Source of the DNA: Candidatus Woesearchaeota archaeon
GTDB lineage: Archaea; Nanobdellota; Nanobdellia; Woesearchaeales; GW2011-AR4
Assembly: GCA_016188245.1 (NCBI GenBank)
Contig: JACPIE010000038.1
Coordinates: forward strand, 30,939 to 94,938
DNA: 64,000 bases
Direction: 5' to 3'
In this document: positions 548 to 46,000 of the stretch, piece by piece
Layout of the letters: each line of letters begins with the position of its first letter
How positions within the stretch are numbered: position 1 is the first letter of the stretch
The notes under the pieces: generated by a model
Told to the model about the DNA's origin: nothing
The model's input: the letters and a program-made list of their open reading frames with translations, nothing else
Database searches by the model: none
Position numbers and translations under genes: made by a program

Positions 548-1047
548 TTTTTTATTATCTGGACAAATTTGTCTTCTCCGAACAAGACAGCCCCGTTTTT
601 CAGCAATTCAAGCACTTCAGGATCTTTTCTTCTGAGCAGCTCAATCAGCTCATCCTCAGTTTTAGCAATAATCTTTAAATCAGAAATCTGCACATCGATA
701 GTTGTTACATTGTCAATTAACAGCAGCAAATCTTTCTTGTAGGCAATGGCGGCATTCGCCTGCTTCAGCTTTCCCATATCAATGCCGTGATTTTCACCAG
801 AATACAGCAAAACAATTGCTGCCAAATGCCCGGCAATCCTGCTTTCAAAATTAATCGAATAGAACAACCCCGTACCGAGCTTTTCTCCAACAACAATGTG
901 GTTTTTTTCAAGTTTTTTAAGAATGTTGAAGACTCCTGCAGGGCTGAACTTTAATCTCTGGGCAATATTCCTTATTGTGAGCTTTTCAGTGAAGTTCCTA
1001 ACAAGAAAATTAAGTACGCTGAACTCGTTGTCTGATAAGGATAGCAT
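529..1047 (-). CDS. winged-HTH transcriptional regulator (MarR/TrmB-like N-terminus) with an uncharacterised C-terminal domain
   Basis: N-terminal 'FSVLNFLV...LTIRNIAQRLKFSPAGVFNILKKLEKNHIV' is a typical wHTH. Divergently arranged with the nucleotidyltransferase gene at 1221. Confidence 0.5.
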   Translation of the reverse strand: MLSLSDNEFSVLNFLVRNFTEKLTIRNIAQRLKFSPAGVFNILKKLEKNHIVVGEKLGTGLFYSINFESRIAGHLAAIVLLYSGENHGIDMGKLKQANAAIAYKKDLLLLIDNVTTIDVQISDLKIIAKTEDELIELLRRKDPEVLELLKNGAVLFGEDKFVQIIKKCAARF

Positions 1048-1220: not shown

Positions 1221-2042
1221 ATGCAAAAACTGGCAATAAAAGAGCAGATTGTGAAAATTGTAAAGAAATCCGGCAATGGCGGAGCTGTATGGGTCCCAAA
1301 AAATTGGCTGGGGCAGGAAGTCATAGTTACGCTTCCAGACAAGCCGAAGTTAGATTTAAAAGAAAAAATTATACACCTGCTTGAGCCTTATTTGAAAGAC
1401 ACAATTGCGGTTTTTGTTTATGGCTCATATGCAAGGCATGAAGAGACAAAAGAGTCCGATATTGATGTGATGGTTATTACAATGAACAAGCCAATGCCAA
1501 TAAGCATTGACGAGCCAAATTTAGAAATAACCTCTTTTCAACTGGATAAGCTAAAGAAAGCAATTGAAAAATATCCGGTCATGTACTGGCAGATTGTGCA
1601 GGAGGCAGTTCCATTAATAAACTCTTTTGTGCTGGACGAGTTAAAAAATATTGAAATCAGCGAAGAAAAATTTAAAAGCTATATTGGCGAAGCTAAAGAG
1701 CATGCTGAAAGCAATAAAGAGCTTATAGAGCTTGATAAATTAGACGGCAAATTCCTAAAATCTTACTCGGCATTGTATTCTGCAATACTGAGGCTGAAGG
1801 GAATGTTTATCATAAACTGCATATCAAACAATGAAAAATTTTCAAGTAAGGCATTTAAGGAATGGATTCTACAAAACAGATTAACAAACCAAGAATTTGA
1901 GCAATGCTATTCAGCTTACCGTGCAGTCAGAAATGATGAAAATGCTAAAGGTATTAAGATTAAGATTTCTGTTGCAGAAAAATTATTAAATATACTGGTA
2001 ACTGAAACAGATTTGATGGAAACCAAGCTTTATGGCAAATAG
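1221..2042 (+). CDS. nucleotidyltransferase-domain protein (MNT-like) with N-terminal AbrB/SpoVT-like swapped-hairpin domain
   Basis: 'KKSGNGGAVWVPKNWLGQEVIV' resembles the AbrB/MazE fold. 'FVYGSYARHEETKESDIDVMVI' is the GS...DxD minimal nucleotidyltransferase motif. Confidence 0.6.
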   Translation: MQKLAIKEQIVKIVKKSGNGGAVWVPKNWLGQEVIVTLPDKPKLDLKEKIIHLLEPYLKDTIAVFVYGSYARHEETKESDIDVMVITMNKPMPISIDEPNLEITSFQLDKLKKAIEKYPVMYWQIVQEAVPLINSFVLDELKNIEISEEKFKSYIGEAKEHAESNKELIELDKLDGKFLKSYSALYSAILRLKGMFIINCISNNEKFSSKAFKEWILQNRLTNQEFEQCYSAYRAVRNDENAKGIKIKISVAEKLLNILVTETDLMETKLYGK

Positions 2043-2223
2043 AAAAAAGAGGCTGCAAAAAGGAATTAACTCGCTTGACAAGCAGATTAAGCTGCACGAG
2101 GAGAAGCTTAAGAAAGCTGGGGAAGAAGACAATATTGAGCTTATCGGATACTACAAAAAAGAGATAAATGCAAAGAAAAAAGATAAAGAAGAGAAGGAAA
2201 GGTTATTGGGCAAAGGAGGGTGA
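2032..2223 (+). CDS. small lysine-rich coiled-coil protein (uncertain)
   Basis: 63-aa K/E-rich ORF immediately downstream of the MNT gene. No motif recognised. Confidence 0.25.
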   Translation: MANRKKRLQKGINSLDKQIKLHEEKLKKAGEEDNIELIGYYKKEINAKKKDKEEKERLLGKGG

Positions 2224-2242
2224 ATTTTTAATTTTATCAAGA

Positions 2243-4180
2243 TTATCTCCCAACAGATTCTTCCTTTCTACTCTCAAAATGACTTCTTGCAGATATCAAG
2301 TCTGATGCACCCAATAAGTCTGTTGGGAAATTTCCGCCTATCAAGGGCTTTCTCAGTCCAATATCCCATCCAACAGGATTTTTGCCTACTCTGACAGCAT
2401 GATCCCAATATAGCTCTCTTAATAGCCTGTCAGCAATATATTTTGGCAGCCCTCTTGAAGATTTTTTAGGAAATGGGTTTTCAGACCATTTGTTTATGCC
2501 GTCTTTGCCTTCATAATAATACATCCTTCCCCAATGGAAGTCAATGCATTTAGCATTTGAAGCCCTTCTGTCATGGGCAGGATTAAGCTGAGACGGCTTT
2601 CTGATTCCGCTTTCTATTGTATAATCATCTTCATTTAAATTTAATTTCATTTGGTATCTTCTTGTAACTTTTTTTTCATCATGAGGCACAGCCATGAAAT
2701 CGCTTGGCTTTGCAGTGACATAGCTTGACATCTGGTCAAATTTCAAAGTTATTTTTTCTTTTGGGATTACAGTCTCTATATCCCTGCCGTTTTCTGTCTT
2801 CGTCCTGTAAGGCAGAGGCCCGCAAATCTGCTTTAGTTCTCCAGGGGCAAAACTCCTGTCTCCTTCGTAAAAAATGGTTGAGAGCCCTTCGCCTGCAAGA
2901 ATGTAGTCCATCGCAGTCTTTGAATGTGGATGGTAAACTCCCGCCCTTAGATCGTCCCTGACTGCATCAAGCTCATGGAACATATACAATGCTGCCTTAA
3001 GCAAGTCCAGCTTCTTGCAAAAAAACTTTGGAACTTTCCTTATTCCGCCTTTACTCACTCCATTGTTAACTTTGGCATTCCAGATTTCTTTTCCCCAAGG
3101 CTTGCTTTTTATGATTTTTTCCTGCCATTCATTTTGGGCTATTTCAGACCACCACTGGTCTAATAAAACTGTGCCGTCTTCACCAACTTCAAGAGGATAT
3201 CCATTTTCATCCAATCCTGCTTCGACTTCATCATTCCTTTTGAAGCTTTCGTTTTCGTGCCTACAATACTCTTCAAAGGTCCAGGTTGCCTTTCTGAAAA
3301 ATTCGTCAGTATTGTTAGGATCGAATTTTGGGTTTTTAATAACAGGGGCTACTATCCGGTATGTATGCTTAAACCTTACATTTTGCGGGCGCAGCTTTTC
3401 CAATGATGTCCACAAAGAATCAAAATCCCTGCTGCTTTCATCTGCCGGGCTTATCCATTTATTTTGAAAACTCGCTTCTCTTTCACGTATTTGTGCCAAC
3501 GCTCCATTTGCTCCATTAATTTTTTCATCTAATTCATTTATAAGATTCCAAATTGCGCCCAAATCCCCTCTTAAGTCACGCGCTTCTTGATCCCAATCAT
3601 CTTTGCGATTTTGCCAGCTTTTCCGAATTGACGGAACTGTTGCATGCCCAATAACGGAAATTTCTTCAGGAAACGCCCCATCATCATCCAAATAAAAAAC
3701 TTTTTCGCTGCCCAGTGTATATTTTTTGACTGTAATAGCATCATTTTCTTCAATTCCATGCCGAATAGGTTCTTCATTTTCAGAAAAACCAGTTCCTATC
3801 TCAAAGAACCTTTTTTCCAATTGGATTATATCGGGATCTGTCAAGAAAGACATACTTCTATAGCGGGCAACAATAGAGTTTTGGCTTTCCCATATTGATT
3901 CTTTAAAGCTTTGCCAGCATCTTTGCTCAATATCTTTAAGCCTTGCTATCAAATTTTCATTTGCTTCAAATTCCGGGCCCAATTCTTTTCTTATCTCAGT
4001 TTCGGATGGGCCGCCTCTTTCCCCTATTTCCGGCTCTTGCATATACCCAAGCCATCGCCCTTTTTTAGTTCTGGCAAATCTATTTTTAAGTCTTATAAGC
4101 CTGTTTTTGATTTTCCACTCAGGATAGCTGCCCGGCGCTTCCATCCCCAATAAATCTTCTTCATCAGCCATAATATTCAC
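2243..4180 (-). CDS. large hypothetical protein (645 aa), last gene of a five-gene operon
   Basis: Long uninterrupted ORF with no recognisable domain and coiled-coil-like stretches. Tightly spaced with the upstream genes on the same strand. Confidence 0.55.
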   Translation of the reverse strand: MNIMADEEDLLGMEAPGSYPEWKIKNRLIRLKNRFARTKKGRWLGYMQEPEIGERGGPSETEIRKELGPEFEANENLIARLKDIEQRCWQSFKESIWESQNSIVARYRSMSFLTDPDIIQLEKRFFEIGTGFSENEEPIRHGIEENDAITVKKYTLGSEKVFYLDDDGAFPEEISVIGHATVPSIRKSWQNRKDDWDQEARDLRGDLGAIWNLINELDEKINGANGALAQIREREASFQNKWISPADESSRDFDSLWTSLEKLRPQNVRFKHTYRIVAPVIKNPKFDPNNTDEFFRKATWTFEEYCRHENESFKRNDEVEAGLDENGYPLEVGEDGTVLLDQWWSEIAQNEWQEKIIKSKPWGKEIWNAKVNNGVSKGGIRKVPKFFCKKLDLLKAALYMFHELDAVRDDLRAGVYHPHSKTAMDYILAGEGLSTIFYEGDRSFAPGELKQICGPLPYRTKTENGRDIETVIPKEKITLKFDQMSSYVTAKPSDFMAVPHDEKKVTRRYQMKLNLNEDDYTIESGIRKPSQLNPAHDRRASNAKCIDFHWGRMYYYEGKDGINKWSENPFPKKSSRGLPKYIADRLLRELYWDHAVRVGKNPVGWDIGLRKPLIGGNFPTDLLGASDLISARSHFESRKEESVGR

Positions 4181-4198
4181 CTTTTTGCTTCATTATTT

Positions 4199-5920
4199 TT
4201 AAAAATATTCCGGCTCCGAAATGCTTATTCCATTTTTAGTGAAATAGCTTGGAGCAGCTCGTTTCAATATTTCATCAACCACTGCTGCCTGAGCCATCCT
4301 CTCTTTCAAAGCCGCTCCCATACCCTGAATTTCTTTGGCTTGATTCTTTAATTCAAGTACCCCTAAATTCTGAACTTTTCGGATCTTTTTTTCATCTTCT
4401 ATGACTCTCTCATCTGCCTCGAAGGAAAATGGATTTATTGCCCTGCCAATCCTTCTTCTTAGGGTTTCAAGCTTTGCTCTGGTCAAGTATACATAAGCGC
4501 CTATGTACGAATTTATCGCCTTATTTTTATTTTCAACCCACGATGCATTTTCTTCAACAAAATTCAATACAGGCTCGCCATAGTCCAGCAACGCATTTGT
4601 GAACGCTATCTTTTCTGCTCTTGTTTCTTTCCTTAAAAAGCCGAGCTCTGTTAGCAGCAGTGCTTCAAACTCCCTTAAGTTTGCTGACTTTCTTTTTGCG
4701 TCTTTGAAAAGATTTCTTAAAATGGCAGCAAGCTCTCTTAATTTTGCATTGATATCTCCTGCTGTCAACTCTTTCCTTCTTTGACTGAATATTTCGGTTA
4801 ATTCTTCCGATGCAGGCAGTATAATATGGGCATTTTGATATGACGGATGGACTAATCTTTTATATTGTAAGTTTAATTCCGCATACCAAGCTGAAGGTGT
4901 TTCATTAGTATGCAAGGCCTCCATCCTATCCGCAAATTTTGTATTTCCAAATTTTTTCCTGAACAACTCAATGAACCTTTCACCACCCATCAAATTTGGA
5001 TAGAATTCATTACCTTGCCCATCCTTTTCGCTAAATCCTTCCCACCTACCTTTGGGCATAGCATCCTTGACTATAGCTATCCATTTTACAAAAAAATCAA
5101 CCTGTCTTTTGTATGTCAACAGGCTTTTTAAGGCATTGGATTTATTGATTTGCGTCACTAAATTTTGTTTATCCTTGAAATACCTGATTAATCCAAGAAA
5201 ATTCTGCTTTTCAAGCTTACCGCCTTGCAAGTAAACCATAACCCTATTCCAGAAGAACATTATATTGTTGCCTATCCTAAAGTCTTTCCAGCTTTGAAGA
5301 TCACCAATACATCTGTCAATTTCAGCAGCTTCTGCCCCGCTGATTTCAATAACAAGCTTTCTTAGTTTGTCTTTAAGCTTATCATCCTCTTTCAATAGAT
5401 TCACCCAGTTAACCAATTCTGCCCCGTGAGTCTGAAGATATGACTTGGCAAATTCCGGATTTGCGTTCAGGGCAGCCAATAATGCGCCCAGGATTGGAAT
5501 TGCATTTTCTTGCGCAGGGCTGAATTTTCTAAGTGCATTTGCCAATCTTGGGTTGTTTGCTTCAATGCCTGCTTCCTTTTCACTGCCTTTTAAAGCCTTT
5601 AATTTTTCATTTTCAAAACTTGCAGCGTCCTGAAGCAGAAAGTATCTAAGCCGAAGGGCTTTTCCGTAGGAATTCCACCTTTTATTCAGCCTAATCAGCA
5701 ATTCCTGCGATTTTAGCACACTCCAATATTTTTCCCATACAAACCTTCTGTCAGCCAAATATTGAAACAGATTGGATGGGGCTGCTTTTGGCTCCATTTG
5801 CCACATTCTTTCCAGTGCCTGCACATCTGCATCAGCAGAAGCTTCATTTCCTCTTTTTTCGATTTTATTAATTACTGCCATTTTATTTGCTCTTTTCAAT
5901 TGTTGCAGTGCCTTTGGCAA
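4199..5920 (-). CDS. large hypothetical protein (573 aa), operon gene 4
   Basis: Long ORF, soluble and alpha-helical in character, no known motif. Its 5' end overlaps the upstream gene by 38 nt, consistent with translational coupling. Confidence 0.55.
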   Translation of the reverse strand: MPKALQQLKRANKMAVINKIEKRGNEASADADVQALERMWQMEPKAAPSNLFQYLADRRFVWEKYWSVLKSQELLIRLNKRWNSYGKALRLRYFLLQDAASFENEKLKALKGSEKEAGIEANNPRLANALRKFSPAQENAIPILGALLAALNANPEFAKSYLQTHGAELVNWVNLLKEDDKLKDKLRKLVIEISGAEAAEIDRCIGDLQSWKDFRIGNNIMFFWNRVMVYLQGGKLEKQNFLGLIRYFKDKQNLVTQINKSNALKSLLTYKRQVDFFVKWIAIVKDAMPKGRWEGFSEKDGQGNEFYPNLMGGERFIELFRKKFGNTKFADRMEALHTNETPSAWYAELNLQYKRLVHPSYQNAHIILPASEELTEIFSQRRKELTAGDINAKLRELAAILRNLFKDAKRKSANLREFEALLLTELGFLRKETRAEKIAFTNALLDYGEPVLNFVEENASWVENKNKAINSYIGAYVYLTRAKLETLRRRIGRAINPFSFEADERVIEDEKKIRKVQNLGVLELKNQAKEIQGMGAALKERMAQAAVVDEILKRAAPSYFTKNGISISEPEYF

Positions 5921-7535
5921 ATCTTAGCGTATCCCTTAATTGCTCTTCTGAATTGGGCCAGTCTTTTGAGTCGTCAGGGAATCTGGCTAAAATTTCCTGA
6001 ATTATTCTTGCCGACTGCCACTCTCTTGCCCTTATCAGAGCTTCCAAATATGCCTGAATTCCGGATACCGTAACCATCGGATATCTATTGTCAGGCTCTG
6101 CTTTCTTAAACTCATTTATTCCCTTGAACGGAATTCTGCCAGGGTTCGCCAAAGCCCTCCTGTCAAATTTTATTCCGCCAATTCCTGTAAACTTAACCAA
6201 GTCATCATTGAGGTGGACATCTTTTTTTTCTTCAAATGCCTTGATATAGTCTGAAGTTGTCCTGCTCTTTGCAGCCAATTCTCCGAATCTGAAATTTTGC
6301 AGATAAGTTTGCCATACCTTTTCCAATTCAGCCCTCATCATCAAGAAATTCGGAATGAAATGCGACATTGCTTTTGGATTGAGAAGCTTTTGCGGCTTTG
6401 CTCCAGACCTATTCACTTCTGCTTCATTCATCTTGTCAACTTCAACTCCGAATATATCCACTTCTAACCCTTTAGGGGCATCTTGTCCGCCAGTTGCCGC
6501 ATGCAAATCTCTCCTGAATTTTGCACCTAGCTTTGTTATTATGTAATGATGCCTGTAATCCCCTGCAATATTGTACATGTCATACAAATTCAGGACTAAT
6601 GAGTGCACTTCATGGTGAACGCCGAAAGCCTCTACCCTTCCTATGCTTTTTACAGCTCCTTCTTCTCCAAAAAACTGGGCGAAATCTGAATGTGCTTCCT
6701 CAGCCGCAGAATCAATTCTTTTTCTTATTTCATTCAGCTTGCCTGTAATCTCGATTAGAGCCCTTTTCTTTGCTGACTGCAGTTCTTTCTTTTTGCTTTC
6801 TGAATCTGTTTTGCCTATTGCCGCATTGTAATCTTTGACAACAAGAATTGATTCAAACATCAAGTCAGTTGTTTTGTTTATTGTGCTTAAAAGCACTTTG
6901 TCAAAAGATGTCCATCCCGAAATCTCTTTTCCTTCAGAAGTAGTGCCGCCGCTCCTGTAAGCCCTTATATCCTGCCTGAGAGCAGACCTTGTAAATGGTT
7001 GTTTTCCAGTTTCTTCCAAACTTTCGGCAAATCCAAATCTTCCCAAATCCTTATTTAACTGCTGTAATTTTTTTTGTATGTCATTTTTAATTGCATACCA
7101 TTTTGCAATCAGCGTGTCAAGCCTTAGCGCATAGTCCAGCAAAACAAAAGTCAATAATCTGTTTTCCCTGAAAGATTTTGGCTGATAGCCCGCTTCCCAC
7201 TCCCATTTTGTTATGGTTTCTGATTTGCCTTTCCATTTCTGCCATTTGTCCCTAATCCTGTTTCGGACAAATGCGCCCCTGCCTTTTCTTGACTGCCTGT
7301 CAAAATTCCTTGTTTCTTTTGATTTGGCAGCCCTTCCGGCAGCATCAAAGCCAAATCCGCTTAAAGTAGATTGTTTTGCGGAATATATTAATGCAAATAC
7401 GAGTCCTCCGCCTAATACGGCCATAACATATGGACTCATAGTTCCAACTAGGCCGTACGTTGGTATCCCTGTTAATTGAATAGCAAATAAAATACCTAAA
7501 CATCCAATACCCCATATCATGTCGTATATATCCAT
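5883..7535 (-). CDS. membrane-anchored hypothetical protein (550 aa), operon gene 3
   Basis: Two N-terminal TM helices ('GIGCLGILFAIQLTG...', 'VMAVLGGGLVFALIYSA') followed by a large soluble domain. No known motif. Confidence 0.55.
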   Translation of the reverse strand: MDIYDMIWGIGCLGILFAIQLTGIPTYGLVGTMSPYVMAVLGGGLVFALIYSAKQSTLSGFGFDAAGRAAKSKETRNFDRQSRKGRGAFVRNRIRDKWQKWKGKSETITKWEWEAGYQPKSFRENRLLTFVLLDYALRLDTLIAKWYAIKNDIQKKLQQLNKDLGRFGFAESLEETGKQPFTRSALRQDIRAYRSGGTTSEGKEISGWTSFDKVLLSTINKTTDLMFESILVVKDYNAAIGKTDSESKKKELQSAKKRALIEITGKLNEIRKRIDSAAEEAHSDFAQFFGEEGAVKSIGRVEAFGVHHEVHSLVLNLYDMYNIAGDYRHHYIITKLGAKFRRDLHAATGGQDAPKGLEVDIFGVEVDKMNEAEVNRSGAKPQKLLNPKAMSHFIPNFLMMRAELEKVWQTYLQNFRFGELAAKSRTTSDYIKAFEEKKDVHLNDDLVKFTGIGGIKFDRRALANPGRIPFKGINEFKKAEPDNRYPMVTVSGIQAYLEALIRAREWQSARIIQEILARFPDDSKDWPNSEEQLRDTLRFAKGTATIEKSK

Positions 7536-7541
7536 TTTTAC

Positions 7542-8846
7542 TTACGGTCCTCTGCCAAACAATCTTCTAATCAAATTAAGCCCAAGCACGTTACGAAATC
7601 TGTAAATCAGGATAGTTCCAATTATAGCCCCAATCCCTCCAATGTAATCTAACCACGGGCCGCCATATGGAACATTCATCCCCCAATCAGCAAAAGCATT
7701 ATTGATTATACCGCCTGACGCAGTTGAAGCAGGAGCAGTAGCAGTATGCTGCGCTAAAAGTTTGCATATGTCATAATTCAACATTGCCCTAAAACCAGAT
7801 CCAAGTGCACCGGTATAATTCACAATGCCAACTATCCCACCGAACAAGGCAATCACTGCGCCCACTACCCAGTTAGGCGATCTTAAAGCAAGCGAAATGA
7901 TCCAAAGTGTTATTAATGTGCTAACAAATCCACTGCTGAGAATTACATATCCAACCTCACCCAAAACTTTCAATGCCCTGCTTTGTTCAAATACGGCACA
8001 AAAAATCCACTCTACAAGTGTAACTCCAATAATCCAGCCCCACCATCTTCCACCAAAACTTGCTGCAACCTGGCTTCCAATCATTAAGAGTGCAAATGAT
8101 TCCCCTATTCCTATCATAGTGCCAGTTGTAGTGCCCTTGCTTGCAAGTTGTGCGCCGATGATAAACGCCATTACATAAGTCAGCCTTGGACTGCCTTGCC
8201 CTAAAGTTGGAATGAATCCCGCAAAGAACCATGCAAACAATATAGTTGCAGTTATGAAGATGAATAACCTGCTTTCAAATATGTTTACTTTGTCTATTGT
8301 TAATATACCATTAGGTCCACGCAGATACTTCCAAAGATTCTGGATATTATTCTCATTCCATATCCAAGTGCCTGCAGGAAGGCTATAAGCTATCATTCCG
8401 GCTAGAAGCAAAGCACCTAATGCGAGCCCTATCTGTCCTTGGAATGTTGGGGGAGCAACGCCTAAAAAGCCCGCTATGTAAAATATTGCAATGGCAAGTA
8501 TTATGGTGTTTACCAGCAAAGTCAATTTTAAGTATTGCGCAATCCATCCGGCTTCCCACAGATAAGCGCTGCCGGCAGGGGCTGGGCTTAGAATATTATA
8601 TGCTATCAACACAGCCAACCCTAAAGTCACAATCCACACAACAACCTTTACTCTCGTCTCTTGGCTTGTAACTAGGAACAGCGACGCTATAAACAAAACA
8701 CTCCAAATTAGCAAGGTATTGACTATGAAAACAACCCACTGATTTCTAAAAAAGCCAGTTAAGGAGCCATGGAAAAATGCAAATGCAGCTGTGCTGCTTA
8801 ATACAAACACCAATCCAAAAATCCAAAACAATTTGTTGATTTTCAT
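7542..8846 (-). CDS. polytopic integral membrane protein (~11 TM), operon gene 2
   Basis: Hydrophobic helices throughout, Gly-rich C-terminal TM segments. Overlaps the ATPase gene stop by 4 nt. Confidence 0.55.
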   Translation of the reverse strand: MKINKLFWIFGLVFVLSSTAAFAFFHGSLTGFFRNQWVVFIVNTLLIWSVLFIASLFLVTSQETRVKVVVWIVTLGLAVLIAYNILSPAPAGSAYLWEAGWIAQYLKLTLLVNTIILAIAIFYIAGFLGVAPPTFQGQIGLALGALLLAGMIAYSLPAGTWIWNENNIQNLWKYLRGPNGILTIDKVNIFESRLFIFITATILFAWFFAGFIPTLGQGSPRLTYVMAFIIGAQLASKGTTTGTMIGIGESFALLMIGSQVAASFGGRWWGWIIGVTLVEWIFCAVFEQSRALKVLGEVGYVILSSGFVSTLITLWIISLALRSPNWVVGAVIALFGGIVGIVNYTGALGSGFRAMLNYDICKLLAQHTATAPASTASGGIINNAFADWGMNVPYGGPWLDYIGGIGAIIGTILIYRFRNVLGLNLIRRLFGRGP

Positions 8847-9988
8847 AATTCTTTTGCTACCTCATTCAGTATTTTATCATCAGGAACATCGTCAAACTCG
8901 TAGCCATGAGAAGTTAACTTCAGCCAAAGCCTTAGCACATTGTCAGCAAAGTAGAACTTGCTGTCTTTCTTGTAGATTATATCGACTTCCATCAGCCTTT
9001 CAAGAATGCTTTTTGCCACAGGCGCGCTTCTGTAAATGCGCTTTGCAATTTCACTCAGCCTTAATTCTTCATTAGCAACAGCCCGTAAAATTGTTTTAAG
9101 AAGTGTTTGCCCTCTTGCCCTGTTGTAGTAAAAATCAAAGGAATCACTGCAGTAATCATAAATCGAATTGTTTTTTTGCAGTAGCTCAATCAAAAATGCT
9201 TTTTTGACATCTTTAACTTCATTGTATTTTTTGGAAATCAAAATTGTAACCAACGGATGCCCATTGCTTAATGCAAAGATTTCATTGCCTGCCTTTTCAT
9301 TTTTGCCGATAATGCTTTCAATTAATTCAAATGCCTCTTTTTTCTCAAGATTTTTTATTTCAAAGCATTCAAATTTCTTCAATAAATGAAGCGACTGCCT
9401 GACAGAAGAGCTTGCCGCAATATACTTGACAAAAGACGAGTCAAAATTTATTATAGAAAGAATATCCTTAATCTGCGAGAAATTGTTCAAATCAAATAAA
9501 TTCTCGAAATTGTCAAGCGCTATCAGGAATTTTTTATTCGTGTCTTTTCCCAAAGTTTCGCTGAACTTAAATGCAGCTTCAACCAACAGTTTTTGGTCAG
9601 GCTTGATTTTCAGCAGCTCATTTTCAACTGCTTTTATCAAGGAAAAGGCATTTTTGCTTTTCAGCTCATCTTCAAGCTTTAGCAGATGCTCAAGCAAAAG
9701 GAATTTTTTATATTCAGCCAAAGGCTTTTTTAGAAAACTAAAGGCAGCATTGCCGATGAATTCAATTGAGAAATTCTCAGGATTCAGGCTGATTTTTTCC
9801 AAATCAATGTAAACTGTAATGGCATCTTTGGCATTTTTGAGATGATTTTTAAGAATCGATGTTTTGCCTGATTTCCTTGAGCCTAAAAGGGCAATATTTT
9901 TTCCGGCGCCTTTTTTGAAAGAATCTGTATTTTTATCTAACAAATCCAAGTAATGCTCTCTGCCAATCAATCCCTCTTTTCCCATCAT
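8843..9988 (-). CDS. archaeal-family AAA+ ATPase (PF01637-like) with C-terminal winged helix, operon gene 1
   Basis: Walker A 'ALLGSRKSGKTS' and Walker B-like 'FLIALDNFENLF'. The C-terminal 'LRLSEIAKRIYRSAPVAKSILERLMEVDIIYK' is a wHTH, the DUF234-like architecture of the archaeal ATPase family. Confidence 0.65.
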   Translation of the reverse strand: MMGKEGLIGREHYLDLLDKNTDSFKKGAGKNIALLGSRKSGKTSILKNHLKNAKDAITVYIDLEKISLNPENFSIEFIGNAAFSFLKKPLAEYKKFLLLEHLLKLEDELKSKNAFSLIKAVENELLKIKPDQKLLVEAAFKFSETLGKDTNKKFLIALDNFENLFDLNNFSQIKDILSIINFDSSFVKYIAASSSVRQSLHLLKKFECFEIKNLEKKEAFELIESIIGKNEKAGNEIFALSNGHPLVTILISKKYNEVKDVKKAFLIELLQKNNSIYDYCSDSFDFYYNRARGQTLLKTILRAVANEELRLSEIAKRIYRSAPVAKSILERLMEVDIIYKKDSKFYFADNVLRLWLKLTSHGYEFDDVPDDKILNEVAKEL

Positions 9989-10353
9989 ATAACTATACCG
10001 AATGGAATATATACTATTAATATAAAAACATTCCGATTTGTTGTTTTATACTTTTTGGTATATACTTTTTAAAATTATATTCTGTTTAGTAGAGAAGTAA
10101 TATTTAAAGCTTGTGATTTGATAATTTATACTAATTGGTATATATATTTTTTGGTATAATCATTATTTGAGCACCCGAATGAGTTTAATAATTGCTATCA
10201 ATTTAAACTTTCCATATAGAAAATAAATTTGTTTTGCTCTATAAACCGAAAGATTTAAATATAAGTGTTATCATGTATAAGTAGTAACATATTAGATATA
10301 ATTGCAATAAAATATTTAAACAATAAAAACAAACAAAAGAGTGAACAAAGAAA
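9989..10353. promoter_or_regulatory. AT-rich divergent promoter region with three copies of a TTGGTATA(T/A) element
   Basis: Copies at ~10055, ~10135 and ~10151. TATA/BRE-like AT tracts lie between the divergent 5-gene operon and the gene at 10354. Confidence 0.3.
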
Positions 10354-11073
10354 ATGGGAAGAATCTGGAATTCAATTAGGGCTGCCGCAAGTAAAAAATG
10401 GAAAGAGGATAAGAAAGAAGTTAGGGAAGTATTAGGTGCCTTAAGAGGCAGAAAAGTACCTGAAGTTATAAAAGATAAATGGTATGGGGATATCAGGGCA
10501 ACAGGGAGATTTGGAAGAGATTATCTTGGAGAAGAGCCTAGATATGATACGGAAATCTTATCAGCATTGTCTCCAGATTTTTATGTAGCAAGCAAAGGCA
10601 GAAGGCTTGAAGATTATACTTTTGAAGTAGCTCCTCCATTTCAAATTCCAGTATATGCAAAGAAAGGCATGCAATTGCAAGATGCAGTTGCTATAGCATT
10701 AAAGGAATTGACAGATAAAGACAAAATACCAAACTTGGAAGATTTGGCAAACAGAGGAATTGTAGAAAAAATTTTATATCAAGCTAGCGGTGGACAAGAT
10801 GTTGCAGCTGAAGCTGGTATAGGATATAGTTTAAGATCCATATTTGCATCTGCAAGAAATGATTTGAGTCGTACTGGAGCGGTTAAACCAACTAAGGGAC
10901 CAGAAGCCAAGGCAACAGGAAAAGGGTACATGGTAACTATAACACCCATGATACTTAAAGATGTATCGGGTTATGCCGGAGGGTCTACAGGCCCTACAGG
11001 TGCATCGATACCTTTAACTTTTGACCCATCCTCAGGATACCATATACCATCTGGCGGCCCTGGCTCTCCATAA
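10354..11073 (+). CDS. hypothetical protein (239 aa) with Gly/Pro-rich C-terminus
   Basis: Clean ORF transcribed divergently from the operon. No motif recognised. Confidence 0.45.
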   Translation: MGRIWNSIRAAASKKWKEDKKEVREVLGALRGRKVPEVIKDKWYGDIRATGRFGRDYLGEEPRYDTEILSALSPDFYVASKGRRLEDYTFEVAPPFQIPVYAKKGMQLQDAVAIALKELTDKDKIPNLEDLANRGIVEKILYQASGGQDVAAEAGIGYSLRSIFASARNDLSRTGAVKPTKGPEAKATGKGYMVTITPMILKDVSGYAGGSTGPTGASIPLTFDPSSGYHIPSGGPGSP

Positions 11074-11117
11074 AACTTTTTTCTTTTTTTTATAATATTT
11101 TTATAATATCCTCCATC

Positions 11118-11507
11118 TCAATACCTCTCAACCCTTAACCCTTCTATTCTCTCAAAATGTTTGTCTCTTGTCAGAACTTTCCTGTTGTTTTTGATTGCAA
11201 TGCCTGCTATCATGGAATCTTCCGTGTCAATTTCTAACCCTTTTTTCATCAGTTTTCCGTCTATTGCGCCTGCGATTTTTGCGCTTTCCCCATCAAGAGG
11301 ATATACAATAAATCCCTTTAAAAAGGAAGTCAATTTTTGCTCCTCTTTTTCAACTTTGCCAAATTGGATTAACCCCCCGTACAATTCAAAAACTGTTGGT
11401 GATGCCAGCTCAACAGGAATGTTTTCGTCTATCAAGCCTTTCATTTTAGCTTTTGCATCTTCCCTGCCTTTAAGAAAATCTATTGCAAATGTTGTTTCTA
11501 AAATCAT
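11118..11507 (-). CDS. vapC: PIN-domain ribonuclease toxin (VapC)
   Basis: N-terminal 'ILETTFAIDFLKG' with acidic residues spaced as in PIN domains. The upstream antitoxin-like gene overlaps it by 4 nt. Confidence 0.7.
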   Translation of the reverse strand: MILETTFAIDFLKGREDAKAKMKGLIDENIPVELASPTVFELYGGLIQFGKVEKEEQKLTSFLKGFIVYPLDGESAKIAGAIDGKLMKKGLEIDTEDSMIAGIAIKNNRKVLTRDKHFERIEGLRVERY

Positions 11508-11737
11508 TTCATCATCTCTCTTATTTTGTTAGAGCGTTCTCGGCTGGCTTTGCGCCTTTCTTTTATGTATTGTGTAAGCTTTTCTCCCTCTTCTTCGCTA
11601 AGAATCCCGGCAAATTCCATAATTGACCTTTTGCCGGCGATCCTGTTTATCACGTCTGTAAAGCTTTCCTTAGGCTCTTTTTGTATTTTAAGCCTTTCAT
11701 AAGCCTCCTCAGTTATAGATATTGTTTTTGTCGCCAT
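11504..11737 (-). CDS. vapB: VapB-like antitoxin
   Basis: 77-aa protein ('ISITEEAYERLKIQKEP...') directly upstream of the PIN gene with a 4-nt overlap. Confidence 0.5.
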   Translation of the reverse strand: MATKTISITEEAYERLKIQKEPKESFTDVINRIAGKRSIMEFAGILSEEEGEKLTQYIKERRKASRERSNKIREMMK

Positions 11738-11868: not shown

Positions 11869-12012
11869 ATGAAGCAAAAAATCAGCATCACAATTGACGA
11901 GAAATCAATTTTAGATATTCTAAAGAATGTTGAAAGCGGCAAGTTTCGCAGCAAAAGCCACTTTGTAGAGTTTGCAGTAAAAAAGCTGCTTGAGGTGGAA
12001 AATGGCAGATGA
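11869..12012 (+). CDS. small ribbon-helix-helix (CopG/Arc-like) protein, not in ORF track
   Basis: Manual translation gives MKQKISITIDEKSILDILKNVESGKFRSKSHFVEFAVKKLLEVENGR, a beta-strand followed by two helices. Its stop overlaps the start codon of the downstream gene (ATGGCAGATGA). Confidence 0.45.
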   Translation: MKQKISITIDEKSILDILKNVESGKFRSKSHFVEFAVKKLLEVENGR

Positions 12013-12901
12013 GCATGGGCGGCAACAGGCACAGCCTGCTGAAAAGAAAGGCCCATCTAAATTCGAGGTAATAGTAAATGAATATGTAAAACAAATTGCC
12101 ATTCCTGTCGCAATAGGAGGAGTAGTAGCTGCTGCGCACAAAGTAGCGACATTATTTGGCTCAATTCCCGCAGCTGCTTCTGCAATTGGAGCTACACTTG
12201 AGCAGATTGTAAGCAAAGGAAATATAGACATCTCAACCGGAAGATTACTAAGTGAGACAGCAACTGGAGCAGCAGTTGGAAGCGCAGCTTATGCAGGTCT
12301 TCAAGCAGTCAACGGCATTCCAAAGGTTTTTGGGCTTGAACATGCTGTTGCAAATGTACTTGGTTATGTGATTCCAGTCAGCACTTTTGCTGTTGGAACT
12401 GCAACACTGGGAATTTTAGCGCCAGCAGCAGTCGCTCTTTATTACTCCGTCAGTCATTTATTCAATAATAACTTTAAATTTGAAGGAATGGGTAAGGATT
12501 TCAAGGAGCACTATCTGAAAGGATTGGCAAGAACAATGCCATTAAACATATTATCTTCTCTTGGAGTTGCGGCGCTTTATGCAGGATATACATTAACTCC
12601 TTACATTGCAATTCCTGCTGCTCTTGGACTTGGGGCATTATACAGGCTTGCATTGTCAAGAGAAAAAATAAATTATTTTTATTTGAAATTAGCTACTTTA
12701 CCTGTATGGGGCCCTATCGTTGGAGCATCTCATCTGATTGCAGGAGCAGTTACAACAGCGTATGAAGCCGTAAAAGGAGCCATTTATCAAGGCTTATCAA
12801 TACTTAATCATGCCCGTGTAGGTATCCATGATTTGGGGTTCGCAACCCACATGGCAATGATGGGAGCTGTTCCTGCACCGGCAGCAAAGAAAGGGCATTA
12901 A
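12002..12901 (+). CDS. Gly/Ala-rich membrane protein
   Basis: Likely starts at ATG 12002 (MADEHG); the track start at 11990 is TTG. Repeated G/A-rich hydrophobic helices. Translationally coupled to the RHH ORF. Confidence 0.45.
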   Translation: MADEHGRQQAQPAEKKGPSKFEVIVNEYVKQIAIPVAIGGVVAAAHKVATLFGSIPAAASAIGATLEQIVSKGNIDISTGRLLSETATGAAVGSAAYAGLQAVNGIPKVFGLEHAVANVLGYVIPVSTFAVGTATLGILAPAAVALYYSVSHLFNNNFKFEGMGKDFKEHYLKGLARTMPLNILSSLGVAALYAGYTLTPYIAIPAALGLGALYRLALSREKINYFYLKLATLPVWGPIVGASHLIAGAVTTAYEAVKGAIYQGLSILNHARVGIHDLGFATHMAMMGAVPAPAAKKGH

Positions 12902-38104: not shown

Positions 38105-38158
38105 TTTTTAACCTCTTTGCGTTTTTTACTACTCACACGAAAACACAACATATAGTAT

Positions 38159-38188
38159 ACAAGATGTCGTCGGCATACTACATCTTGT
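38159..38188. promoter_or_regulatory. 9-bp inverted repeat (acaagatgt/acatcttgt) in the nrdJ upstream region
   Basis: Perfect 9-bp arms separated by 12 nt, about 55-85 bp upstream of the nrdJ start codon. Confidence 0.25.
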
Positions 38189-38361
38189 GTATTTTTAGTT
38201 CATGCTTATATTTAAAGATTGTGATTCCGCTATATAAAAACAAAGCACCTTTTTACCAAAACCCGAACAAAAATGGAAGATTTTGAGGTTTATATATTTT
38301 AGGCAGGGATGTCCAGTGGTTGATTATGCGCATTTAAATACAAGCTTAACATTATGCATTT

Positions 38362-41830: not shown

Positions 41831-41952
41831 AATATAAAGTCTATCAATGTTAATTTAAAAAATTATCTAATTATATGGGGCAAACAAGCTAGGGAGTTGG
41901 GGCTTTAAAATACCATTTATGATTTTAGAATTTTTGATTTTTTACAAATATA

Positions 41953-45960: not shown

Positions 45961-46000
45961 TAAGAAAATACATGTTTATTAATTTAAAAATCTTTAGAAT

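What the first reader, a model, noticed from the sequence alone, without database searches (positions are those of the whole stretch)
2243..9988. Five-gene operon: archaeal-family ATPase, 11-TM membrane protein and three large orphan proteins
Five co-directional genes are packed with 4-nt and 38-nt overlaps or gaps of at most 18 nt, which implies one transcript. They are driven from an AT-rich divergent promoter (9989..10353) that carries repeated TTGGTATA elements. Only the first gene is recognisable: a PF01637-like archaeal ATPase with a C-terminal wHTH (Walker A LLGSRKSGKTS). The other four are a polytopic membrane protein, a 2-TM-anchored 550-aa protein, and soluble 573-aa and 645-aa proteins; I can assign none of them to any family or system I know. 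The combination of an NTPase, a membrane component and large unknown effectors is the architecture of many immunity or surface-machinery systems. I could not place it in a described family.
Basis: partly seen in the sequence, partly recalled or inferred. Interest (0 to 1): 0.8.

Follow-up and report, generated by a model that had tools for sequence, protein, structure and literature searches.

The report
Regulator-anchored hypervariable membrane operon in Woesearchaeota
A five-gene operon of tiny symbiotic archaea (Woesearchaeota) pairs a well-conserved DNA-binding ATPase and its conserved DNA binding sites with four membrane-linked proteins of no known family; these four differ almost completely between close relatives, as expected for genes caught in a conflict with viruses or partner cells.

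Summary
In detail: five tightly packed minus-strand genes (g1-g5) follow an AT-rich divergent promoter. The host is a Woesearchaeota (DPANN) archaeon.

- **g1** belongs to the PF01637-type ATPase + winged-helix family.
- **Operator array:** the "TTGGTATA" repeats are halves of a 16-bp palindrome, TATACCAAWWRGTATA. Three to six copies, interleaved with two TATA boxes, lie upstream of g1 in 75 of 80 related loci and almost nowhere else.
- **Cassette:** g1-g2-g3-g4-g5 is kept in the same order in about 100 loci. g2 and g3 are often fused.
- **g3 and g5** share a C-terminal domain. Its confident AlphaFold model matches no PDB or viral fold.
- **g2-g5** hit nothing in Pfam, NCBIfam, PADLOC or PHROGs.
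- **Context:** the locus sits among housekeeping genes and is absent from viral contigs.
- **Main new result:** genomes with about 90%-identical g1 and 78-93%-identical flanking DNA have g3-g5 only 25-35% identical, with no nucleotide similarity. g5 divergence is uncoupled from g1 divergence, and 52 loci carry 39 g5 types.

I read this as an autoregulated, membrane-anchored recognition or conflict module with an exchangeable specificity block. Its biochemical function remains unknown.

The parts
8843..9988 (-). g1: 381-aa P-loop ATPase (Walker A GSRKSGKT, degenerate Walker B LDNFE) with a C-terminal winged helix-turn-helix. It is the conserved first gene of the cassette and the proposed operator-binding ATP switch.
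   Evidence: ORF. Weak AAA_16, AAA_14, DUF815 and wHTH hits. 7 of 12 orthologues hit PF01637. The family profile hits 2fna at E 1e-6. The recognition helix RLSEIAxRIYRSAPVTKxLLERL is nearly invariant down to 26-30% overall identity. dN/dS is 0.07-0.15.
7542..8846 (-). g2: 434-aa polytopic membrane protein with a signal-peptide-like N-terminus and a conserved membrane-embedded Glu249. Only its first ~285 aa are conserved. Its start overlaps the g1 stop by 4 nt.
   Evidence: Hydropathy. Conservation map. The 4-nt overlap is seen in nearly all loci. g2 is fused to g3 in about half of the loci. No Pfam hit in the window's g2 or in the 14 fused g2-g3 orthologues scanned.
5883..7535 (-). g3: 550-aa protein with two N-terminal TM segments, a strongly basic juxtamembrane stretch (implying a cytoplasmic body), a helical middle and a C-terminal domain paralogous to that of g5.
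   Evidence: No Pfam or PDB sequence hit.
6036..6338 (-). Core motif block (about residues 400-500) of the domain g3 shares with g5: W408, G418, S424-R425, Y430, F457-D458, G472, P481-N483-P486.
   Evidence: HMM cross-hits. hhalign probability 99.2%, E 6e-20 over 275 columns. Conserved positions. Coordinates are approximate.
4199..5920 (-). g4: soluble, helical protein of 573 aa (about 560 aa if it starts at ATG 5881). It is unrelated to g3 and g5 and is the most divergent member of the cassette.
   Evidence: hhalign finds no relation to g3 or g5. No Pfam or PDB hit. Median pairwise identity is 18%. Some orthologues are too divergent for the family HMM but still occupy the same position.
2243..4180 (-). 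g5: soluble protein of 645 aa (642 aa in the NCBI annotation). It has an N-terminal helical-hairpin/small beta region and a C-terminal globular domain.
   Evidence: Full-length AF2 model has pLDDT 53.9, with only residues ~20-390 of moderate confidence. No PDB match by Foldseek.
2246..3295 (-). C-terminal domain of g5 (residues 296-645). It carries invariant acidic/basic motifs (GLDENGYPLE, DxxRDDxRxGxxH, PAFD, HWGRxYYY, RG, DxG) and its fold has no detectable counterpart.
9994..10009 (.). Operator site D (g1 strand: TATTCCATTCGGTATA), 6-21 nt upstream of the g1 ATG and between TATA-2 and the expected transcription start. This is a repressor-type position.
10018..10028 (-). TATA-2 (TTTTTATATTA on the g1 strand), the proposed promoter of the g1-g5 operon. 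It ends about 30 nt upstream of the ATG, so the leader is short or absent.
   Evidence: Conserved column block in the 30-locus alignment. Its promoter function is inferred.
10047..10062 (.). Operator site C (TATACCAAAAAGTATA).
10077..10092 (.). Operator site B position. It is degenerate in this genome; the consensus elsewhere is TATACAAAATGGAATA.
   Evidence: Alignment. Not matched at <=1 mismatch in the window.
10101..10109 (.). TATA-1 (CTTTAAATA on the g1 strand). It is either a second upstream promoter or the promoter of the divergent unit.
   Evidence: Conserved block. Its direction was not determined.
10127..10158 (.). Adjacent operator sites A2 (TATACCAATTAGTATA) and A1 (TATACCAAAAAATATA).
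2150..2242 (-). T-rich tract with two T6 runs directly after the g5 stop codon. This is a plausible archaeal oligo-T terminator and marks the end of the unit.
   Evidence: Sequence. No statistical test was made.
11869..12012 (+). RHH47: conserved 47-aa protein that I read as ribbon-helix-helix from its sequence (no RHH family hit was obtained). It is translationally coupled to up303. In most close relatives it is the gene directly divergent from g1. It is an accessory of one clade, not part of the universal core.
   Evidence: Nucleotide similarity to 31 loci. Absent near distant cassettes that still have the operators.
11990..12901 (+). up303: Gly/Ala-rich hydrophobic protein, hypervariable, present as 1-4 tandem RHH47-up303 pairs in relatives.
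   Evidence: Nucleotide similarity to only 0-2 loci.

Best explanation
This is a lineage-specific, autoregulated operon of Woesearchaeota-type DPANN archaea. It has a conserved control part and an exchangeable, hypervariable working part.

**Control part (inferred from co-conservation).** g1 is a PF01637/STAND-like ATP-binding switch. Its winged helix binds the array of 16-bp palindromes TATACCAAWWRGTATA that flank and overlap two TATA boxes. This gates transcription of its own operon and, in one clade, of the divergent RHH47-up303 genes.

**Working part (partly shown, partly inferred).** g2 and g3, often one polypeptide, form a polytopic membrane platform whose large domain faces the cytoplasm. 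g4 and g5 are soluble subunits that dock on it. g3 and g5 carry the same new-fold domain, with an invariant cluster of Asp/Glu/Arg/His residues that looks like a ligand-binding or catalytic pocket.

**Evolutionary mode (shown).** The block from the 3' part of g2 through g5 exists as dozens of deeply diverged types. These are swapped between lineages by recombination between the conserved flanks.

**Committed reading (inferred).** The complex is a recognition or conflict device acting at the inner face of the membrane. g3-g5 set its specificity and g1 controls its production. My single most likely function is inducible antiviral immunity of the abortive-infection or sensor type. The next most likely is discrimination of the host or partner cell.
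For: **Cassette integrity**
- Same gene order in 29 genome loci and about 60 metagenomic loci with enough sequence.
- 4-nt g1/g2 overlap nearly universal; g2-g3 fused in about half.
- The cassette persists where g1 is only 30-39% identical to the window's.

**Operators**
- 330 of 369 matches in 988 kb fall within the 306 bp upstream of g1.
- 75 of 80 loci have at least 3 sites. The mean is 4.1 per region against 0.046 in shuffles.
- The same position weight matrix is found in 29 distant loci.
- Positions relative to the two TATA boxes are conserved.
- The sites follow g1, not RHH47. They are present in L035, L036 and L039, where no RHH47 or up303 is nearby.
- The g1 recognition helix is nearly invariant across the cassette-linked clade and differs in stand-alone PF01637 relatives.

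**Cytoplasmic orientation**
- The stretch after g3 TM2 is strongly basic.
- No TM segment or N-terminal hydrophobic (signal-peptide-like) stretch is seen in g4 or g5 by hydropathy and by reading the sequences; no signal-peptide predictor was run.

**Shared domain**
- g3/g5 paralogy: hhalign probability 99.2%.
- Confident model with no fold match.

**Hypervariability and exchange**
- In 13 genomes the median identities are TrxR 84%, g1 74%, g2/g3 23%, g4 18% and g5 26%.
- g1 has dN/dS 0.07-0.15 and dS 0.6-1.0. In the same genome pairs g3-g5 have dN 0.55-0.94.
- Flanks are 78-93% identical in DNA. Similarity disappears across g3-g5 and returns within about 10 nt of the g5 stop codon.
- About 80 loci align to the window's g1 at nucleotide level, but only about 3 align to g2-g5.
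- g1 and g5 identities are nearly uncorrelated (rho 0.12), whereas g4 and g5 co-vary (rho 0.59).
- There are 39 g5 types among 52 loci. Pairs with 90%-identical g1 carry g5 of 957 versus 588 aa. One g5 type is shared by genomes whose g1 are only 61-80% identical.
Against: - No biochemical activity can be assigned. There is no hit to any defence model, nuclease, protease, pore-former or nucleotide-signalling domain.
- Presence in every locus with enough sequence recovered through a g1 search, which cannot reveal genomes that lack the cassette, and a fixed position among housekeeping genes, are unusual for immune systems.
- Binding of g1 to the palindromes is inferred, not shown. Translational coupling of g1 to g2 would make as much regulator as structural protein, which is odd for a pure transcription factor.
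- Codon alignments at 25-35% protein identity are unreliable. The saturated pS of g3-g5 is therefore only indicative. The stronger evidence is the blastn mosaic and the length-class switches.
- TM topology rests on hydropathy and the positive-inside rule only.
Confidence: 0.45

Rival explanations
1. Symbiont-host interface machine. The g2-g5 complex builds or operates the contact site or cytoplasmic bridge through which the DPANN cell attaches to and draws material from its host. The hypervariable block then adapts each lineage to a particular host.
For: - Every locus recovered whose source organism was named is from episymbiotic DPANN.
- The complex is membrane-anchored.
- The cassette is present in every locus with enough sequence recovered through a g1 search, at a housekeeping-type location. 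This fits an essential lifestyle function better than optional immunity.
- Variability and allele exchange are as expected for partner-specific recognition.
- The neighbouring membrane protein up303 is hypervariable too.
Against: - The most variable proteins (g4, g5) have no TM segment or N-terminal hydrophobic stretch by hydropathy and by reading the sequences (no signal-peptide predictor was run), so they are predicted to stay in the symbiont's cytoplasm.
- The better-conserved part is the N-terminal half of the membrane protein g2.
- No adhesin-like, pilin-like or secretion domain was found.
Confidence: 0.25
2. Ordinary structural membrane scaffold, such as a cytoskeletal or division-associated coiled-coil complex. 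On this view its sequences drift fast only because helical scaffolds tolerate substitutions, and no conflict or recognition is involved.
For: - There is a long helical region in the g5 model. g3 and g4 give only coiled-coil noise against the PDB, which is also the level of the g5 N-terminal part.
- Gene order and chromosomal position are fixed.
- A few motif residues stay strictly invariant against a divergent background.
Against: - Drift in place cannot explain the sharp boundaries where 78-93% flanking DNA identity drops to nothing exactly at the block edges.
- It cannot explain the lack of correlation between g1 and g5 divergence (rho 0.12).
- It cannot explain different g5 length classes in genomes with 90%-identical g1, or the same g5 type in genomes with 61-80%-identical g1.
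- dN of g3-g5 is about equal to the dS of g1 in the same pairs.
Confidence: 0.12
3. g1 is the motor or assembly ATPase of the machine rather than its regulator. On this view the palindromes are bound by another factor, such as the RHH47 protein, the nearby MarR or a global regulator.
For: - g1 is translationally coupled to g2 almost everywhere, which suggests equimolar production and physical association.
- An RHH gene and a MarR gene lie close by in many loci.
Against: - The palindromes persist upstream of g1 in loci with no RHH47 or up303 within 10 kb. MarR is present in only 11 of about 30 genome loci.
- The palindromes occur almost only upstream of g1.
- The most conserved segment of g1 is its winged-helix recognition helix.
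- Walker B is degenerate in the cassette clade (DN, EN, KE, EH). That fits a nucleotide-binding switch better than a motor.
Confidence: 0.12
4. Replication-origin-like element. On this view g1 is an initiator-type AAA+/winged-helix protein and the palindrome array is an ORB-like set of initiator boxes in an AT-rich region next to the initiator gene.
For: - The architecture resembles archaeal orc1/cdc6-oriC pairs: an AAA+ plus wH protein gene next to an AT-rich region with 4-5 repeated dyad elements.
- PF01637 proteins have been modelled on Cdc6 structures (PMC1913061).
Against: - g1 gives no Orc1/Cdc6 family hit in Pfam or NCBIfam. One of its 12 orthologues gives a marginal ORC-CDC6-like Pfam hit (E 0.0041), and the only similarity to 2qby is P-loop-level (E 0.05).
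- The sites are placed precisely around two conserved TATA boxes.
- The cumulative GC skew shows no turn at 10 kb.
- Stand-alone relatives sit in unrelated contexts.
Confidence: 0.03
5. Remnant of an integrated virus, plasmid or other mobile element.
For: - Toxin-antitoxin and nucleotidyltransferase genes are inserted around the cluster.
- A weak TrbC/VirB2-like hit lies downstream.
- The block is exchanged horizontally.
Against: - There are no relatives of g1 or g5 on 2.9 million IMG/VR contigs.
- There are no credible PHROG hits.
- No integrase-family hit was seen among the flanking genes of the window that were scanned or in the recorded Pfam annotation of the three closest loci. L004 has an integrase about 9 kb downstream.
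- GC content of the cluster (0.38-0.41) is like the rest of the window.
- The chromosomal position is the same across species.
Confidence: 0.03

Closest known systems
PF01637 (ATPase_2, 'archaeal ATPase') proteins, e.g. the solved structures 2fna and 2qen
   Same: g1 shares the P-loop ATPase followed by a winged helix. The family profile hits 2fna at E 1e-6. 7 of 12 orthologues hit PF01637. Relatives 27-36% identical in Methanosarcinales and Nitrospinota are annotated PF01637.
   Different: g1 lacks the ~150-aa C-terminal extension of the stand-alone relatives, and its Walker B DE is degenerate. It is always followed by g2 and preceded by the palindrome array. No function is established for the family, so the comparison does not explain the system.
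STAND/NLR-type immune sensors such as Avs4 (PDB 8dgf)
   Same: A conserved NTPase is combined with hypervariable partner regions. The g1 profile shows weak P-loop similarity to Avs4 (E 1e-4). Some orthologues give faint NACHT or nSTAND hits.
   Different: The variable parts here are separate polypeptides and are membrane-anchored. The NTPase carries a DNA-binding domain instead of sensor repeats and an effector. No PADLOC model matches. The distribution is lineage-wide and syntenic rather than patchy.
Serotype-type variable loci (pneumococcal cps, O-antigen clusters, Bacteroides CPS loci with conserved 5' UpxY/UpxZ regulators). This comparison comes from my own knowledge.
   Same: A conserved regulatory 5' end and conserved flanks enclose a block that exists as many deeply diverged types and is replaced by recombination.
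   Different: No glycosyltransferase, flippase or polymerase family was detected in any member. The variable genes stay homologous and collinear rather than being replaced by unrelated enzymes. The variable proteins are predicted to be cytoplasmic.
Archaeal Orc1/Cdc6 with ORB-box origins
   Same: An AAA+ plus winged-helix gene lies next to an AT-rich region with several dyad-symmetric boxes.
   Different: g1 gives no Orc1/Cdc6 family hit; one of its 12 orthologues gives a marginal ORC-CDC6-like Pfam hit. The boxes are positioned as operators around TATA boxes. There is no skew signal.
ATPase-plus-platform envelope machines (type IV pili/archaella, type II/IV secretion)
   Same: A conserved ATPase gene is followed by a polytopic membrane protein and poorly conserved bitopic or soluble helical partners.
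   Different: g1 is not a PilB, FlaI, VirB11 or VirB4-type ATPase and has a DNA-binding domain. g2 does not match FlaJ, PilC or GspF. There are no pilins in the operon.

Membership tests
PF01637 (ATPase_2) ATPase + wHTH | Walker A P-loop GxxxxGK[ST] | tested here: met
   GSRKSGKT at residues 36-43. G36, G41 and K42 are invariant in 14 diverse relatives.
PF01637 (ATPase_2) ATPase + wHTH | Match of the window's own protein to the PF01637 model | tested here: not met
   No PF01637 hit even at E <= 10. The best hits are DUF815 (26.4 bits), AAA_14 and AAA_16.
PF01637 (ATPase_2) ATPase + wHTH | Family-level match: orthologues or the family profile match PF01637 members | tested here: met
   7 of 12 orthologues hit PF01637, best E 8e-9. 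Hits are also on record for L035 and L039. The profile hits 2fna at E 1e-6.
PF01637 (ATPase_2) ATPase + wHTH | C-terminal winged helix-turn-helix | tested here: met
   Sub-threshold but consistent hits of residues ~292-348 to HTH_Cmi2_C, TrmB and HTH_45 in the four close orthologues. Orthologues also hit IclR, HTH_24 and MarR. This segment is the most conserved in the family. No hit reaches a curated cut-off.
PF01637 (ATPase_2) ATPase + wHTH | Canonical Walker B hhhhDE | tested here: not met
   The window has LDNFE. The cassette clade varies (EN, EE, KE, EH, DD), whereas stand-alone relatives keep DE.
Orc1/Cdc6 initiator with ORB origin | Match to Orc1/Cdc6 models (e.g. TIGR02928, Cdc6_C) | tested here: not met
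   No such hit for g1 in Pfam or NCBIfam. One of 12 orthologues gives a marginal ORC-CDC6-like hit (E 0.0041). 2qby matches only the P-loop at E 0.05.
Orc1/Cdc6 initiator with ORB origin | Array of repeated dyad boxes next to the gene | tested here: met
   4 sites in the window and 3-6 in 75 of 80 loci. They are interleaved with TATA boxes.
Orc1/Cdc6 initiator with ORB origin | Strand-composition switch at the site | tested here: not met
   The cumulative GC skew does not turn near 10 kb. This is a weak test on a 64-kb window.
Known anti-phage defence systems (PADLOC-DB 2.0) | Match of any component to a defence-protein model | tested here: not met
   Only marginal hits: mad8 at E 5.5e-4 on the P-loop, and Unk_03 at E 4.8e-4 on a helical stretch.
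Known anti-phage defence systems (PADLOC-DB 2.0) | Patchy distribution and defence-island context | tested here: not met
   The flanks are syntenic housekeeping genes in 18 of 24 loci, and ribosomal-protein or aaRS genes in a distant locus. The cassette is present in essentially every g1-bearing locus. Only scattered TA modules are nearby.
Known anti-phage defence systems (PADLOC-DB 2.0) | Rapid diversification and horizontal exchange of specificity components | tested here: met
S-layer / surface glycosylation assembly | Glycosyltransferase, oligosaccharyltransferase, flippase or S-layer domains | tested here: not met
   No such Pfam hit in the window proteins or in 26-28 orthologues each of g3 (14 of them g2-g3 fusions), g4 and g5.
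Type IV secretion / pilus-like machines | VirB4, VirB11, PilB or FlaI ATPase and a FlaJ, PilC or VirB6-type platform | tested here: not met
   None detected in g1-g5. A weak TrbC/VirB2 hit (E 6e-4, below cut-off) belongs to a separate downstream gene at 26-547.

The most novel reading that the evidence does not exclude
The cassette is a previously unrecognised kind of archaeal self/non-self or antiviral recognition system, a 'split NLR'. A conserved STAND-like ATPase with a DNA-binding output is coupled to a membrane-anchored complex. The specificity subunits of that complex (g3, g4, g5) carry a new protein fold. They exist as dozens of exchangeable types kept in the population by frequency-dependent selection. 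In DPANN episymbionts the same device could decide which host or virus a lineage can engage.
Probability: 0.3. Interest if true: 0.88.

Novelty: categorically new. Interest (0 to 1): 0.72.

Why it matters
DPANN archaea have tiny genomes, yet this lineage spends about 8 kb on a cassette that no database explains.

- **A cheap test.** The conserved ATPase-wHTH gene, its 16-bp operator array and the two TATA boxes can be tested directly: g1 binding, with and without ATP. That would give the first functional handle on the large but uncharacterised PF01637 family.
- **A marker of biological conflict.** An exchangeable, hypervariable block between conserved flanks is the signature of loci that decide interactions with viruses or partner cells. 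How uncultured DPANN choose hosts or resist viruses is an open question. This locus gives a concrete candidate and a typing marker (the g5 type) to correlate with hosts and viruses in metagenomes.
- **A possible new fold.** The domain shared by g3 and g5 has a candidate active site.

Tried and rejected
**Homology searches that found nothing**
- Pfam, NCBIfam, PADLOC and PHROGs on the five proteins. Pfam on every member of the g3/g2-g3, g4 and g5 alignments gave no recurrent family.
- Profile searches against PDB sequences for g3, g4, g5 and the g5 C-terminal domain gave only coiled-coil noise or nothing.

**Structure**
- The full-length g5 model was poor (pLDDT 53.9), and its Foldseek search of the PDB was empty.
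- AFDB50 was not available.

**A wasted search**
- One protein search with the whole g3 alignment returned only 4 proteins, because low-complexity words saturated the candidate list.

**Ideas rejected**
- RHH47 as the operator binder. The sites persist where RHH47 is absent.
- A viral or mobile origin.
- A replication origin.
- g4 as a paralogue of g3 or g5.
- The view that g1 is exceptionally conserved. Calibration against neighbouring housekeeping genes shows g1 is ordinary (74% against 66-84%). It is g2-g5 that are extraordinary.

**Not informative**
- The sigma-70 promoter scan is irrelevant for an archaeon and was at chance level.
- Literature searches found no description of the cassette.

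Full report
**1. What is at the coordinates**

| Gene | Coordinates | Length |
|---|---|---|
| g1 | 8843-9988 | 381 aa |
| g2 | 7542-8846 | 434 aa |
| g3 | 5883-7535 | 550 aa |
| g4 | 4199-5920 | 573 aa |
| g5 | 2243-4180 | 645 aa |

- g1 and g2 overlap by 4 nt. The g2/g3 gap is 6 nt and the g4/g5 gap is 18 nt.
- The 38-nt g3/g4 overlap probably comes from choosing the most upstream TTG. Orthologues align from residue 13-14, and the ATG at 5881 leaves a 1-nt spacer.
- Two T6 runs follow the g5 stop codon.
- By hydropathy, g2 has about 10-12 hydrophobic segments and g3 has two.
- The stretch after the second g3 segment is very rich in Lys and Arg. By the positive-inside rule this puts the body of g3 in the cytoplasm. 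g4 and g5 have no hydrophobic segment.
- The organism is a Candidatus Woesearchaeota archaeon: g5 is identical to HYV80_06250.
- The window is chromosomal. It carries tRNA synthetases, ribonucleotide reductases and a tRNA gene long enough (107 nt) to hold an intron.

**2. Homology of the proteins**

g2-g5 have no credible hit in Pfam, NCBIfam, PADLOC or PHROGs. Scanning 26-28 orthologues of each family gives no recurrent Pfam family either. Profiles against all PDB sequences give only coiled-coil noise.

The window's g1 gives weak AAA_16, AAA_14 and DUF815 hits plus sub-threshold winged-helix hits, but no PF01637 hit.
- 7 of 12 orthologues hit PF01637.
- The family profile hits the PF01637-type structure 2fna at E 1e-6, and Avs4 at E 1e-4.
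- Relatives 27-36% identical, of 510-580 aa, in Methanosarcinales and Nitrospinota are stand-alone PF01637 genes with a C-terminal extension and no g2-g5 partners.

**3. The cassette is conserved and lineage-restricted**

- A scan of species-representative genomes with a g1 alignment gave 29 loci. All are Woesearchaeota/Nanoarchaeota MAGs, and some carry a 'Methanosarcinales' label.
- A metagenome scan gave 79 more loci, with g1 35-81% identical to the window's.
- Local profile searches show the order g1-g2-g3-g4-g5 in every locus with enough sequence. The g2 start overlaps the g1 stop by 4 nt almost everywhere. g2 and g3 are fused into one 800-1180-aa protein in about half of the loci.
- Where the g4 profile failed, a protein of similar size still fills the position.
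- The cassette persists where g1 is only 30-39% identical: L035, L036 and L039.
- At that distance, variant cassettes also appear that keep only g1 plus g2.
- Flanks are housekeeping genes and often syntenic. Thioredoxin reductase is present in 18 loci, M17 peptidase in 10 and DJ-1 in 8. Ribosomal-protein genes flank L035.
- Nothing related is found on IMG/VR viral contigs.

**4. The promoter region**

- In the window there are four sites (<=1 mismatch) at 9994-10158, against 0.38 matches expected in all 64 kb.
- An alignment of 30 upstream regions shows a ~190-bp block conserved far beyond the neighbouring coding DNA. Its order is: sites A1 and A2, TATA-1 (TTTAAATA), site B, site C, TATA-2 (TTTTTATA), site D, then the g1 start.
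- Over 80 non-identical loci, 75 have at least three sites.
- 330 of 369 matches in 988 kb lie in the 306 bp upstream of g1. The mean is 4.1 per region against 0.046 in shuffles.
- The consensus is TATACCAAWWRGTATA. It is the same in 29 loci whose g1 is 35-56% identical to the window's.
- Site D lies between TATA-2 and the expected transcription start, a typical archaeal repressor position. That reading rests on established knowledge and is an inference here.

**5. Who binds the sites**

In most close relatives the gene divergent from g1 is a conserved 47-aa protein that I read as ribbon-helix-helix from its sequence. It is coupled to a Gly/Ala-rich hydrophobic protein (up303), and the pair is repeated 1-4 times. 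In the window this pair (11869-12901) is separated from the promoter by an extra gene (10354-11073) and a PIN/antitoxin pair.

Several points favour g1 as the binder:
- The palindromes persist in L035, L036 and L039, where no such RHH or up303 gene lies within reach.
- They never occur upstream of the additional RHH47-up303 copies.
- The one protein that always accompanies them is g1.
- The winged-helix recognition helix of g1 (RLSEIAxRIYRSAPVTKxLLERL) is its most conserved segment across the whole cassette-linked clade, and it differs in stand-alone relatives.
- The Walker B acidic pair is degenerate in the clade. That fits a nucleotide-binding switch.

g1 as an ATP-dependent autoregulator is therefore the best-supported inference. 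It has not been demonstrated.

**6. The shared domain**

- The C-terminal ~300 residues of g3 and residues ~190-590 of g5 are homologous: hhalign probability 99.2%, E 6e-20. g4 is unrelated to both.
- The domain carries invariant polar residues: E318, D324, E331, D341, D405, R408, D409, D410, R412, H417, D537, R552, R576 and D606 in g5.
- A full-length g5 model was poor.
- After I collected 32 homologues, the C-terminal 350 residues folded with pLDDT 81.6 and pTM 0.80.
- Within the limits of those libraries the fold has no counterpart. AFDB was unavailable.

**7. The main new finding: a hypervariable, exchangeable block**

*Divergence against neighbouring genes.* In 13 genomes that carry all the genes, median pairwise identities are as follows.

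| Gene | Median pairwise identity |
|---|---|
| Thioredoxin reductase | 84% |
| DJ-1 | 81% |
| M17 peptidase | 66% |
| g1 | 74% |
| g2/g3 | 23% |
| g4 | 18% |
| g5 | 26% |
| up303 | 26% |

*Substitution rates.* In pairs with about 90%-identical g1 (dN/dS 0.07-0.15, dS 0.6-1.0), g3-g5 are 25-41% identical with dN 0.55-0.94. That is as large as the synonymous divergence of g1. The codon alignments at this identity are rough.

*Sharp boundaries.* DNA comparison shows them directly.
- L026 versus L051, and L009 versus L016, are 78-93% identical through the upstream genes, g1 and the start of g2.
- They show no similarity across g3-g5.
- Similarity resumes within about 10 nt of the g5 stop codon.

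*Nucleotide similarity to the window across the ~115 loci held at that point*.

| Region of the window | Loci with nucleotide similarity |
|---|---|
| g1 | about 80 |
| Operator block | 46 |
| TrxR | about 34 |
| RHH47 | 31 |
| MarR | about 13 |
| g2-g5 | about 3 |
| up303 | 0-2 |

*Uncoupled histories.*
- g1 and g5 identities are nearly uncorrelated (rho 0.12), while g4 and g5 co-vary (rho 0.59).
- Pairs with g1 85-95% identical have g5 21-40% identical.
- A trio with g1 71-81% identical has g5 88-90% identical.
- Fifty-two loci hold 39 g5 types at 50% identity. One type is shared by genomes whose g1 are 61-80% identical.
- Genomes with 90%-identical g1 carry g5 of different length classes, such as 957 versus 588 aa.

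Fast drift in place cannot produce these boundaries and discordances. The block is replaced between lineages, with g1 plus operators on one side and the downstream genes on the other as conserved flanks.

**8. Interpretation**

*Shown:*
- a real, conserved five-gene unit;
- a specific operator array tied to g1;
- g2-g3 linkage by fusion;
- g3/g5 paralogy;
- a confident model without a fold match;
- hypervariability with exchange.

*Inferred:*
- g1 binds the operators;
- g2-g5 form one complex on the cytoplasmic face of the membrane;
- the invariant polar residues form an active or binding site.

*Committed guess:* this is a recognition or conflict module whose specificity lies in g3-g5. Antiviral immunity is the single most likely role, because the most variable parts are intracellular. 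A symbiont-host interface function is next.

*Against immunity:* the lineage-wide presence, the housekeeping context and the absence of any known defence domain.

**9. Limits**

- No transcript data were available.
- TM topology rests on hydropathy only.
- There was no HHpred or AFDB search.
- Only one domain has a reliable model.

**10. Novelty**

No paper found describes the cassette. Only g1 can be placed in a known, though functionally uncharacterised, family. With the tools at hand, the system as a whole does not fit any described kind.

Noticed in passing
window 11869-12901 (+); e.g. L015 6016-9690: A conserved 47-aa protein (read as ribbon-helix-helix from its sequence) is translationally coupled to a hypervariable Gly/Ala-rich hydrophobic ~300-aa protein. 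In relatives the pair is repeated 1-4 times in tandem, divergent from g1. It repeats the pattern of a conserved DNA-binding gene followed by a hypervariable membrane gene.
   Followed up: partly
window 10354-11737: An extra orphan gene (239 aa, found only in the window and one close relative) and a PIN toxin / 77-aa antitoxin pair on the minus strand lie between the operator block and the RHH47-up303 pair. In L001 a PIN-MazE pair sits instead between g5 and MarR. TA modules therefore insert at varying points around the cassette.
   Followed up: partly
window 26-1047 (-); L001 12770-16315; L003 11977-15650; L010 11187-14327: Downstream of g5 in about a third of the loci: a MarR-type regulator, then a ~170-aa five-TM protein with a weak TrbC/VirB2-like (DUF8208) hit. 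Next comes a 650-1050-aa protein whose N-terminus is a paralogue of that small protein. This may be a second membrane system. The window ends inside it.
   Followed up: partly
window 1221-2042 (+): A Pol-beta-type nucleotidyltransferase gene lies convergent with g5. It is present at the same place in only a few relatives (L006, L027). L035 has an NTase-HEPN pair nearby.
   Followed up: no
window 38000-46000: Low-GC stretch (0.30-0.33 against ~0.40 elsewhere). It holds a 960-aa DEAD-box helicase with an MrfA-type zinc domain and an RNase H-like C-terminus, plus several orphan ORFs. It may be a horizontally acquired island.
   Followed up: no
window 33971-38104 (-) and 28992-30752 (-): Two ribonucleotide reductase large-subunit genes. 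The longer one is interrupted by an intein with a LAGLIDADG endonuclease domain.
   Followed up: no
window 61882-61988 (+): A 107-nt tRNA gene found by Rfam (51.5 bits) but missed by ARAGORN. It probably contains an archaeal intron.
   Followed up: no
L008, L018, L022, L024, L025, L027-L030, L033: Several GTDB-representative MAGs titled 'uncultured Methanosarcinales archaeon' (binchicken and SRP co-assemblies) carry this Woesearchaeota cassette with 66-81% identical g1. They look mislabelled in the public record.
   Followed up: no
L106, L111, L112 (g1 at locus start; about 9 kb downstream): A variant cassette at g1 37-40% identity: g1, g2 (~450 aa), a ~565-aa soluble protein, a ~700-aa 6-7-TM protein, a ~355-aa protein and a ~900-aa 2-TM protein. 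Only g1 and g2 are recognisable with the profiles built here.
   Followed up: partly
L037 7979-7994 (gene start 8001): A stand-alone PF01637 gene of a Methanosarcinales MAG has a TATACCACATAGAATA match 22 nt upstream of its start and another about 400 nt upstream. This may be chance, or a hint that related ATPase-wHTH proteins use similar boxes.
   Followed up: no
L010 9536-11244; L022 9332-11452: g5 is split into two ORFs in two MAGs. The cause could be a frameshift, an assembly error or decay; this was not resolved.
   Followed up: no
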